Source: a virus
Taxonomy: Duplodnaviria > Caudoviricetes
Virus record (IMG/VR): IMGVR_UViG_3300007083_000004
Location: 64,001 to 128,000 of that record
DNA: 64,000 nucleotides
Direction: 5' to 3' (one strand)
Below are positions 31,036-58,540 of this stretch, one piece after another. The position numbers were made by a program, and so were the translations under genes. Each line of letters starts with the position of its first letter. Position 1 is the first letter of the stretch. The notes below the pieces were generated by a model. The model searched no databases. It was not told the origin of the DNA and was given only the letters and a program-made list of their open reading frames with translations.

Positions 31036-31057
31036 AATTTAAAAAGGAAATAATCTC

Positions 31058-51830: not shown

Positions 51831-52454
51831 ATGACTTTAGTTGGTATACTAACAGAAATAGAGAAAAATGGTAAAGAGGAAATATCGAAGTTAGATGGCA
51901 ATAGACCCCTTATTGTAGATGGTTCCATATCAGAAATACTGACTAGAGCTTTAAACATAGCCTATGCCAAGAAAAACAAAATGAGTGATAATCCTGAATA
52001 TGGATTAAGAAATGATGACGTTAAAAACCCTCCTGGAGCTTTTGGTTCTGATAATGAAATTGATATAGAAAATCAATATGCAATAAAACCCGATATGGAG
52101 GGATTTCAGGAAAAAGAAGCTCAGATAAGATTAGCTGCGGCAAAATTAAGTAATGCAATAGATGCCAGGAATAACGATGGTTTAATAAATACTAGAGCTA
52201 AGCCTATATTGATTTATGCAGTACCAGAGAACCTGATGGTTGATGATAGAACCAAGGAAGAATTGGATGCTTATTTAGCTGCTGGTGTAAAACCTAAAGA
52301 TTTTGTATTTACCTATATTGAAGATGTTGATGTAAATATGAATTTAAATAAAAGGTCGGTGGATATTAGTGATCATGTAGTGGAAATGGAGAAAAATGGT
52401 GCTAGGGTATATCATTCTTTAAGAGAATTTTTAGATAGGATTTCTGATCAATAG
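51831..52454 (+). CDS. Hypothetical protein
   Basis: 207 aa; DGSISEILTRALNIAYAK; followed by palindrome 52476-52513. Confidence 0.7.
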   Translation: MTLVGILTEIEKNGKEEISKLDGNRPLIVDGSISEILTRALNIAYAKKNKMSDNPEYGLRNDDVKNPPGAFGSDNEIDIENQYAIKPDMEGFQEKEAQIRLAAAKLSNAIDARNNDGLINTRAKPILIYAVPENLMVDDRTKEELDAYLAAGVKPKDFVFTYIEDVDVNMNLNKRSVDISDHVVEMEKNGARVYHSLREFLDRISDQ

Positions 52455-53899: not shown

Positions 53900-54160
53900 A
53901 TGGCTACATATAAACCCAAAGCTGATTTTACCATCGAAGCTTTTCAATTAAAACCAAATGTGGTTAAGCCGGATTGGTTGACTGATTGCGAATTGGTTGA
54001 AACACTATCTCAAAAAAAAGACGATGTGGAATTAACTATTAAGACAGTAAATGGATCCCTATTTGCTAGAAAAAATGATTGGATTGTTAAAACCCACATT
54101 GATCAAATTCTGATTTATGATGATAAAGTATTTTCCAAGTATTTCGAAGAAGTAATTTAA
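53900..54160 (+). CDS. Small phage protein (paralog of 58211..58540 and of the 1..1036 N-terminus)
   Basis: IEAFQLKP.VVKPDWL...KTVNGSLFARKNDWIVK; ATG 53900 after AGGT. Confidence 0.7.
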   Translation: MATYKPKADFTIEAFQLKPNVVKPDWLTDCELVETLSQKKDDVELTIKTVNGSLFARKNDWIVKTHIDQILIYDDKVFSKYFEEVI

Positions 54161-54173
54161 AGGAAATCTAGTA

Positions 54174-54473
54174 ATGAATGTAATTATATATATTGTTACT
54201 TCAGTATTTATTTTTTTAATAATGGAGTTTGCAGTCAGAACTTGGGATATGAAAGGACATAGATCAATTTTATATAAGTTTTTTAATAATAAAAAAGAAT
54301 TGTTTTTAGGTTATAGAATACTTTCTTTACTTTGTATTTTATATACATTTATTTTAGTTATAAAAGGATTATATATACAGAATAATTATTTTGGTATATT
54401 AAATGTGTTAATTACTTTATTCATAAATGAATTTTATAATTTGATATTATACAAAGAGTTATTTAAAAAGTAA
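54174..54473 (+). CDS. Membrane protein (about 3 TM)
   Basis: 99 aa, hydrophobic; AAGGAA RBS. Confidence 0.65.
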   Translation: MNVIIYIVTSVFIFLIMEFAVRTWDMKGHRSILYKFFNNKKELFLGYRILSLLCILYTFILVIKGLYIQNNYFGILNVLITLFINEFYNLILYKELFKK

Positions 54474-54506
54474 ATAATTTATTATTTTAATAACTTATAT
54501 ATTTTG

Positions 54507-54700
54507 GAAGGTAATAACGTTTTTCTCCATTTCGTTATTATTTTCTTTCGCCTTTGTTTGTCAAGGATAATGTTTCCTATATTTCCTTTTCATTATCCTT
54601 GACACAAGGGGTTGTTGCGAGAGAGTGCCTTTATTGGGTGTAAAGGTGAGTGTAGGAGTAAGACCTAGGTATAGCCTTTCGGCTATACCTAGGCATCCTT
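54507..54700 (+). ncRNA. Candidate small RNA with anti-Shine-Dalgarno loops
   Basis: Three hairpins plus terminator (54664-54693); loops TTTTTCTCCATTT and TTTCCTATATTTCCTTTT; G-U pairs favour the + strand. Confidence 0.6.
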
Positions 54701-54733
54701 TTTGTTTGTTCATTTTTAGAATTATTTCATATA

Positions 54734-54773
54734 TATATAACTATAGTGAATTAAGACGATTGTGTTTTAATTC
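54734..54773 (+). promoter_or_regulatory. Putative early promoter with 5' hairpin
   Basis: TATATAAC-TATAG-TG, then GAATTAAGAC...GTTTTAATTC. Confidence 0.6.
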
Positions 54774-54795
54774 TTAATCCTAATAGGAGAAAATC

Positions 54796-57714: not shown

Positions 57715-58218
57715 ATGAAATATAATAAACCTAATATCGTCGCTATTGTAGCATATTCTACTAATAGAATAATAGGTAACAATGGAAAAATACCATGGTC
57801 TATTAAAGAGGATTTTAAACACTTTAGGCAAACCACTTTGGGTTATCCTGTTATAATGGGTAGAAAGACATTTGAGTCCATAGGTAGATCCTTAGATGGT
57901 AGAACTAATATAGTACTAACTAGAAATAAATAATTTTCTCATAAAGGTGTATTAGTATATAATTCTATTTCTAATATATTAGATTCTTTATACGGTAAAG
58001 AAAAAGTATTTATTATAGGCGGATTTGAAATATATAAAAACACAATTCATTTATGTGATGAAGTAATCGCTACCGAAATACCTAAAGAATATAAAGGAGA
58101 TGTTTATTTCCCATTATTATCAAATAGTTTTAAAGAATATAGTAAAAGAACTGTGGTGAAATGTGGTAAAAGGTTATTTGATATAGTGACTTATAAAAAG
58201 GAAATTAATAATGGCTAA
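57715..58218 (+). pseudogene. folA: Dihydrofolate reductase with in-frame TAA at 57931-57933
   Basis: [35 protein letters not shown]; the same frame continues after the stop with VFIIGG.EIY and GDVYFP to TAA 58218. Confidence 0.9.
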
Positions 58219-58540
58219 GTATAGAAAAATTCCAGTAGTAATAGATGCGTTTCAATTTACTGAATTTGCTGAAATACCAGATTGGGCTAAAGTAGATGAA
58301 GTTACCTACTATAAAACATTATCATATACTTTAGATAATGGAATGAATATACATGGATTACATTTGGTAAATGGCGAAGATAGGTTTATACCACCTTTTC
58401 ATCAAGCTCAAATAAATACCCTAGAAGGTACTATGACGGCACAACTAAACGATTGGATCATTAAAGGCGTGAATGGCGAGATATATCCGTGTAAACCAGA
58501 TATATTCGAAAAAACTTACGAATTGGTTGAAGATGATTAA
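58211..58540 (+). CDS. Widespread small phage protein (YRK.PVVI.A...TLEG...DWII.GV.GE.YPCKPDIFEKTYE family)
   Basis: Family motif fully present; palindrome at 58543-58578 follows. Confidence 0.85.
   Translation: MAKYRKIPVVIDAFQFTEFAEIPDWAKVDEVTYYKTLSYTLDNGMNIHGLHLVNGEDRFIPPFHQAQINTLEGTMTAQLNDWIIKGVNGEIYPCKPDIFEKTYELVEDD

What the first reader, a model, noticed from the sequence alone, without database searches (positions are those of the whole stretch)
54507..54700. Candidate phage small RNA whose hairpin loops are antisense to the phage's own ribosome-binding sites
Seen: an ORF-free interval folds into three hairpins and a terminator. Hairpin 1 (54507-54545) has a 13-bp stem with two G-U pairs and loop UUUUUCUCCAUUU. 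Hairpin 2 has a perfect 14-bp stem (54559-54572/54591-54604) and loop UUUCCUAUAUUUCCUUUU. A third G-U hairpin lies at 54626-54648 and the terminator at 54664-54693. G-U pairs and the T-tail indicate a + strand RNA. Loop 2 is the reverse complement of AAAAGGAAAUAUAGGAAA. AAAAGGAAAT is the RBS at 31042, 49076, 55310, 58196, 59746 and 60315, and ATAGGAAA is the RBS of the autotransporter and DUF1353 genes. Loop 1 complements GGAGAAAA, the RBS of the 34607 and 54796 genes. Established: CU-rich loops in S. aureus RNAIII and alphaproteobacterial AbcR sRNAs repress translation by pairing with SD sequences. Inference: a trans-acting multi-target translational repressor that could shut off early phage genes or host mRNAs. 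I know of no such system described in jumbo phages.
Basis: partly seen in the sequence, partly recalled or inferred. Interest (0 to 1): 0.88.

Follow-up and report, generated by a model that had tools for sequence, protein, structure and literature searches.

The report
Jumbo-phage anti-ribosome-site small RNA
A giant uncultured phage carries a folded, protein-less RNA whose two open loops mirror the sites where ribosomes dock on messages, and many related giant phages keep a similar RNA at a fixed spot, so it may be a common but untested way for these viruses to damp protein synthesis.

Summary
The + strand at 54506-54703 of a 200-kb phiKZ-like (Chimalliviridae) phage folds far better than shuffles (z -7.3). 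Loop 2 pairs with the phage's 178 RBSs better than shuffled loops (p 0.017); loop 1 does not (p 0.17). No DNA relative or Rfam match exists. New here: a descriptor taken from this element finds the same stem with a U-rich UCCU loop in one fixed gap of other Chimalliviridae, between phiKZ gp49 and DNA polymerase gp50 (17 of 32 long gaps, against 7 of 502 other intergenic strands; Goslar included). Loops stay while stems change. That gap is only 56 nt in this phage, so this element is a displaced counterpart or a convergent one; homology is not shown. Best reading: an RNA that blocks Shine-Dalgarno sites in trans (0.5). No promoter, transcript or target is shown, and a preference for early genes is not separable from their stronger RBSs. 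This scan noted similar RNAs in other jumbo phages before (46 notes, unchecked).

The parts
54506..54703 (+). Candidate structured non-coding RNA, about 200 nt; 5' end inferred from the start of hairpin 1, 3' end from the T run
   Evidence: lies in the ORF-free gap 54474-54795
54507..54545 (+). Hairpin 1, 13 bp with 2 G-U; loop 54520-54532 complementary to the GGAGAA class of RBS
   Evidence: -10.7 on +, -5.3 on -; loop vs RBS set not better than shuffles
54546..54622 (+). Hairpin 2, interrupted stem of about 25 bp with a perfect 14-bp core; loop 54573-54590 with two UUCCU words complementary to the AAAGGAAA class of RBS
   Evidence: (strongest U/C-loop hairpin in the genome's intergenic DNA)
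54626..54648 (+). Hairpin 3, 8 bp with 2 G-U
   Evidence: -7.9 on +, -3.7 on -
54642..54658 (+). G-rich segment (3' arm of hairpin 3 plus linker with an SD-like AGGAG) that can pair with loop 2 in cis, 16 bp with one bulge
   Evidence: -16.3 kcal/mol, p 0.001-0.014; not a feature of the counterparts in other phages (p 0.26)
54664..54703 (+). Intrinsic-terminator-like hairpin (13 bp) and T run 54699-54703
54733..54742 (+). Early-type promoter motif ATATATAACT downstream of the terminator; serves the 54796 gene, not the RNA
54174..54473 (+). Upstream 99-aa hydrophobic ORF with no family; the RNA may be the 3' end of its message
   Evidence: its RBS ranks in the top 5% for loop 2

Best explanation
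The stretch is a non-coding RNA of about 200 nt, made from its own non-early promoter or released from the 3' end of the upstream two-gene mRNA. Long stems hold two U/C-rich loops open, and these pair with Shine-Dalgarno sequences of many messages, as the 16S tail would, lowering translation initiation. The phage's own AAAGGA/GGAGAA messages are the best-supported targets; host messages are possible. Shown: fold, strand preference, terminator, loop 2 complementarity above shuffles, recurrence of the design. Inferred: transcription, boundaries, timing, pairing in vivo, repression.
For: Fold z -7.25 with six G-U pairs on +. Hairpins 2 and 1 are the two strongest U/C-loop hairpins in the genome's 65 intergenic regions. 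Loop 2 vs 178 RBSs: 50 at -8 kcal/mol or better against 20 for shuffles, p 0.01-0.017. Same design in the gp49-gp50 gap of other Chimalliviridae: 17 of 32 vs 7 of 502; the only hit in 46 intergenic regions of G016, scanned with the rule already fixed. Identical 14-nt loop with different stems in L132 and L137. Loops pair slightly better with the RBS set of their own genome than with others' (p 0.009, includes this element); 17 of 21 family loops beat their shuffles. Mechanism established for AbcR1/2 and NfeR1 (PMC8844928).
Against: No promoter motif at the 5' end. Loop 1 not better than shuffles. The best genome-wide partners of both loops lie in coding regions, and loop 2's cis partner (-16.3) beats every RBS (best -14.5 to -15.2). 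No sequence homology to the gap RNAs (best z 3.0, reached by 9 of 650 background regions). The counterpart is absent from phiKZ, PA3, RAY, PCH45 and the nearest relatives RSL2 and G003. The enrichment p-value is inflated: genomes are related and the strict loop rule was written after many loops had been seen.
Confidence: 0.5

Rival explanations
1. The loops mimic the 16S rRNA 3' tail for proteins rather than pair with mRNA: a decoy for a host ribonuclease that cuts the anti-Shine-Dalgarno sequence, or a sink for S1, bS21 or Hfq-like U-rich RNA binders.
For: UCCUU stands in 18 of 22 family loops and in loop 2; one loop (L129) reads ACCUCCUUUC like the 16S tail. MazF-mt3 cuts UCCUU in the 16S anti-SD and MazF-mt6 cuts UUCCU (PMC5408214). 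No conserved cognate target stands out.
Against: Those nucleases are mycobacterial; none is shown in this phage's unknown host. Loops track their own genome's RBS usage, which a protein decoy would not need. Loop 1 lacks UCCU.
Confidence: 0.17
2. A cis element at the 3' end of the 53900/54174 mRNA: stacked hairpins and a loop 2 pseudoknot with 54642-54658 protect the message, or loop 2 folds back on the RBS of the hydrophobic 99-aa ORF to keep it silent, as in type I toxin messages.
For: Starts 33 nt after the stop codon with no promoter motif between. Cis duplex -16.3 kcal/mol, p 0.001-0.014. The 54174 RBS is in the top 5% for loop 2.
Against: In the counterparts neither the downstream segment (p 0.26) nor the upstream gene's RBS (p 0.85) is matched, and the upstream gene there is a different one. 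The full cis duplex must open hairpin 3. Several regions were tried, so the p-value is optimistic.
Confidence: 0.17
3. A regulator of one or a few specific messages; in the relatives the neighbouring DNA polymerase gp50 message.
For: Cognate gp50 RBS pairs better than swapped ones (p 0.04), with perfect 11-nt (L131) and 9-nt (L135) matches.
Against: One of four swap tests, borderline. Median rank of gp50 among own RBSs is only 0.35. In this phage the gp50 RBS ranks at 0.78 and 0.46 for the two loops.
Confidence: 0.08
4. The RNA is read from the minus strand and is a CsrA/RsmA sponge with GGA loops, or the + RNA sponges GGA-rich host RNAs.
For: Five GGA words on the minus strand, three in loops; a sigma70-like site (11 of 12) on the minus strand at 54564-54537.
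Against: G-U pairs and T run favour +; the sigma70-like site points away from hairpin 2; counterparts are on the sense strand before terminators (17 sense vs 4 antisense); no Rfam match.
Confidence: 0.04
5. No function beyond the terminator; the other hairpins are chance in an AT-rich, palindrome-rich genome.
For: The genome has dozens of perfect intergenic inverted repeats, and five of 12 bp or more with an 18-nt spacer.
Against: The other wide-spaced repeats are AT-rich, unrelated and without U/C loops; two U/C-loop hairpins in one gap against 1.4% per intergenic strand; G-U pairs on one strand.
Confidence: 0.04

Closest known systems
AbcR1/AbcR2 (alpha-r15) and NfeR1 (alpha-r14) sRNAs of Rhizobiales (PMC8844928)
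   Same: Two or three single-stranded anti-Shine-Dalgarno motifs, one in a hairpin loop, then a terminator; many targets blocked at the RBS.
   Different: Their motifs are C-rich (CUCCUCCC, UUCCCCUC) in 114-121-nt RNAs; here the loops are U-rich, 13-18 nt, on long stems in a roughly 200-nt phage RNA. No Rfam match even at E 10.
Staphylococcus aureus RNAIII and RsaE/RoxS (from my own knowledge)
   Same: C/U-rich loops that pair with G-rich RBSs.
   Different: Firmicute RNAs with UCCC seeds; RNAIII is over 500 nt and encodes a peptide; no sequence or model match.
c4 antisense RNA of phages P1 and P7 (PMC12197685)
   Same: Phage RNA whose loops pair near a ribosome-binding site and block translation.
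   Different: Temperate phages, one cognate target (ant mRNA), its own Rfam family, not matched here.
phiKZ ncRNA candidates (PMC10914365, PMC8244752)
   Same: Short non-coding transcripts exist in a nucleus-forming jumbo phage, some UTR-derived.
   Different: No function or anti-SD loop is reported in the passages read; the region reported at 270595-270485 has no U/C loop, and phiKZ has no strong hairpin of this kind.

Membership tests
AbcR/alpha-r15 and cuckoo/alpha-r14 | Match to the Rfam covariance models | tested here: not met
   the gap RNAs also have none
AbcR/alpha-r15 and cuckoo/alpha-r14 | C-rich motifs CUCCUCCC or UUCCCCUC | tested here: not met
   loops are U-rich with UUCCU and UCUCC
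Anti-SD trans-acting sRNAs (works like) | Unpaired anti-SD motif in a stable fold | tested here: met
   loops predicted over 90% unpaired in nested folds; a pseudoknot is not excluded
Anti-SD trans-acting sRNAs (works like) | Complementarity to RBSs above composition-matched controls | tested here: inconclusive
   loop 2 p 0.017, loop 1 p 0.17
Anti-SD trans-acting sRNAs (works like) | Discrete transcript with its own promoter | tested here: inconclusive
Anti-SD trans-acting sRNAs (works like) | Repression rescued by compensatory mutations | not testable with these tools
   needs reporters
Chimalliviridae gp49-gp50 gap RNA (undescribed; seen here) | Stem of 7 bp or more with U-rich loop and UCCU/UCUCC core, sense strand, before a terminator | tested here: met
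Chimalliviridae gp49-gp50 gap RNA (undescribed; seen here) | Position between gp49 and gp50 | tested here: not met
   that gap is 56 nt in this genome; the element lies 19 kb away
Chimalliviridae gp49-gp50 gap RNA (undescribed; seen here) | Sequence homology outside the loop | tested here: inconclusive
   18 of 19 columns with L135 before the terminator, z 3.0, not above background; model R1 found nothing in 50 genomes
CsrB/RsmY/RsmZ | GGA loops on the transcribed strand and Rfam match | tested here: not met
   GGA loops only on the disfavoured minus strand; no Rfam match
c4 antisense RNA | Rfam C4 match and cognate ant target | tested here: not met

The most novel reading that the evidence does not exclude
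Nucleus-forming jumbo phages widely encode an RNA mimic of the 16S anti-Shine-Dalgarno tail, tuned to each phage's own RBS style, that reprograms translation across many messages during infection; this element is a displaced two-loop member, and Goslar carries a testable counterpart.
Probability: 0.3. Interest if true: 0.87.

Novelty: new variant of a known kind. Interest (0 to 1): 0.64.

Why it matters
Whether lytic phages use base-pairing RNAs is largely open (PMC10884466). In nucleus-forming phages transcription and translation are separated (PMC12908238), so exported messages could be controlled before ribosomes load. A recurring anti-RBS RNA would be a new layer of that programme. The counterpart in E. 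coli phage Goslar (NC_048170, 298-nt gap ending at the DNA polymerase gene near 176,470-176,765) makes the idea testable now with antisense knockdown and RNA-seq.

Tried and rejected
DNA relatives: none in phage genomes or IMG/VR; 24 metagenome 18-mer hits were chance, none with the second arm. Nearest phages are about 50% identical in protein and have no gap at the syntenic place. A single-sequence covariance model found nothing in 50 genomes, without a positive control. Rfam gave nothing. A late-promoter motif search was swamped by palindromes. A shared pseudoknot, upstream pairing and gp49-RBS pairing in the counterparts were rejected. A family of 18-nt-spaced inverted repeats was rejected. 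A family model was not built because MAFFT left the stems out of register. Host: the autotransporter's nearest relatives are 30-36% identical, several from Bartonella and two in Rhizobiales-like contexts; too distant to name a host, so host targets were not scored. Three genomes with a short gap (G018, G012, G028) showed no clear relocated two-loop element.

Full report
Setting. The window is positions 64001-128000 of a 200,349-bp, 31% G+C viral record. The 410-aa protein upstream is 50% identical to proteins of Ralstonia phages RSL2 and RSF1 and has relatives across phiKZ-like phages, so this is an uncultured member of the Chimalliviridae with no close relative on record. The element lies in an accessory region, between a hydrophobic 99-aa ORF (54174-54473) and a 126-aa ORF (54796).

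The observation. All stems, loops and RBS positions are as stated. The + strand folds at -76.2 kcal/mol, z -7.25. The minus strand has a similar z but -61.0; each G-U-containing hairpin loses 4-5 kcal/mol there. Hairpin 2 is longer than reported, so the RNA is three stacked helices, a 15-nt linker and a terminator. In nested folds both loops are open.

Is it a separate transcript? The genome has a clear early motif, ATATAT(A/T)AC, at about 20 intergenic sites about 60 nt before start codons. One copy lies at 54733, after the terminator, and none scores upstream of hairpin 1. There is no TATG either. The upstream TATATATTTTG is shared with the start of the Goslar gap, which may be chance in AT-rich DNA. 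A stand-alone RNA and a 3'-UTR-derived RNA are both open. No read data could be had.

Is the RBS match more than chance? AAAGGA precedes 36 of 178 genes. Loop 2 pairs with the RBS windows better than 300 shuffled loops (mean -6.09 vs -4.95, p 0.017; RBS minus coding difference p 0.023). Loop 1 does not (p 0.17), although it fits the minor GGAGAA class. No single target stands out: the best partners genome-wide are in coding regions. Early genes pair better with the loops (p 0.002-0.03), but equally with the 16S tail, so they simply have stronger RBSs; GGAGAA is enriched among them (6 of 30 vs 4 of 155). Loop 2 can also pair inside the RNA with 54642-54658 (-16.3, p 0.001-0.014), better than with any RBS.

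Relatives. Sequence searches found nothing. A descriptor written from this element alone (stem of 8 bp or more, G-free U/C loop with UCC) hit repeatedly at one place in 80 Chimalliviridae loci: downstream of the phiKZ gp49 homolog and before the DNA polymerase gp50 gene. With a uniform rule, 17 of 32 such gaps of 180 nt or more have the hairpin on the sense strand, 4 on the antisense strand, against 7 of 502 other intergenic strands (Fisher p 3e-18). That p-value overstates the case, because genomes are related and the strict rule was written after many loops had been seen. The cleaner checks are the first blind hits and G016, where the fixed rule hit only this gap among 46 regions. In seven of eight wholly or partly scanned genomes chosen mostly for having it, the gap hairpin is the strongest of its kind. 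L132 and L137 share an identical 14-nt loop on different stems. UCCU stands in 19 of 22 loops. Several phages have two loops, as here. Goslar and Vibrio phage pVa-21 have it; phiKZ, PA3, RAY, PCH45, 201phi2-1 and RSL2 do not. None matches Rfam.

Relation of this element to that class. The gp49-gp50 gap of this genome is 56 nt and the element sits 19 kb away. Similarity outside the loops is not significant. It is therefore a counterpart by design; relocation and convergence cannot be told apart.

What the class says about mechanism. Swap tests show no shared pseudoknot (p 0.26) and no match to the upstream gene's RBS (p 0.85), and a borderline match to the gp50 RBS (p 0.04) that does not hold in this phage. 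Loops fit their own genome's RBS set slightly better than other genomes' (p 0.009, with loop 2 the largest contributor; base composition and relatedness not removed). This favours pairing with many SD-led messages over a single target or a protein decoy, modestly.

Comparison with the known. It works like AbcR1/2 and NfeR1, whose unpaired anti-SD motifs were shown genetically to block RBSs (PMC8844928), and loosely like c4 RNA (PMC12197685), but it is a member of neither. phiKZ studies list ncRNA candidates without function (PMC10914365, PMC8244752). Ten literature searches found no description of such an RNA in jumbo phages; the library is incomplete. Earlier notes of this scan describe anti-SD RNAs at other loci of other jumbo phages; I did not check them and do not count them as support.

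Verdict. A real structured RNA element (about 0.9), probably a discrete or processed small RNA (about 0.7), most likely a trans-acting anti-Shine-Dalgarno repressor (0.5). Rivals are a 16S-tail decoy for proteins (0.17; PMC5408214) and a cis 3'-end element (0.17). New variant of a known kind; interest 0.64, raised by a testable counterpart in Goslar and held down by the lack of any expression or binding data.

Noticed in passing
L119:1891-2188 (Goslar), L127, L129-L137, L142, L144, L146, L150, L152, L154, L184:3393-4011; gap after the gp49 homolog: Structured 200-650-nt non-coding region between phiKZ gp49 and gp50 homologs in many Chimalliviridae, often with TATG near its start, U/C loops and a terminator; no Rfam match. 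Worth a family description of its own.
   Followed up: yes
window 54713-54760 and G000:49334-49381: An identical 48-bp early-promoter block occurs twice in the genome, before unrelated genes, suggesting recent copying of an expression cassette.
   Followed up: no
window 61024-61166 and 61163 onward: The autotransporter's RBS and signal-peptide-like start lie in a short ORF that stops at 61166; the 1073-aa frame begins in another frame at 61163, so the gene appears frameshifted or split. Nearest relatives are 30-36% identical, several from Bartonella.
   Followed up: partly
window 54564-54537, minus strand: Sigma70-like site (11 of 12) whose -35 hexamer is an arm of hairpin 2, pointing antisense into the 99-aa ORF.
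   Followed up: no
G000:48156, 72742, 92346, 118573, 120724: Five perfect inverted repeats of 12 bp or more share an 18-nt spacer, more than at other spacer lengths; the arms are unrelated.
   Followed up: partly
window 52384-52396: Perfect 13-nt complement of loop 1 inside the 51831-52454 gene, not at an RBS.
   Followed up: partly
L045, L048, L068, L091 (G006, G007 classed as provirus): Chimalliviridae-like contigs of 139-172 kb at 57-59% G+C, two of them classed as proviruses by IMG/VR.
   Followed up: no
window 53900-54160, 58211-58540 and G000:63810-65036: Three genes share a short homologous domain (blastp E 1e-17 to 3e-4).
   Followed up: no
L131 gap and L135 gap: Loops perfectly complementary (11 and 9 nt) to the RBS of the phage's own gp50 DNA polymerase gene.
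   Followed up: partly
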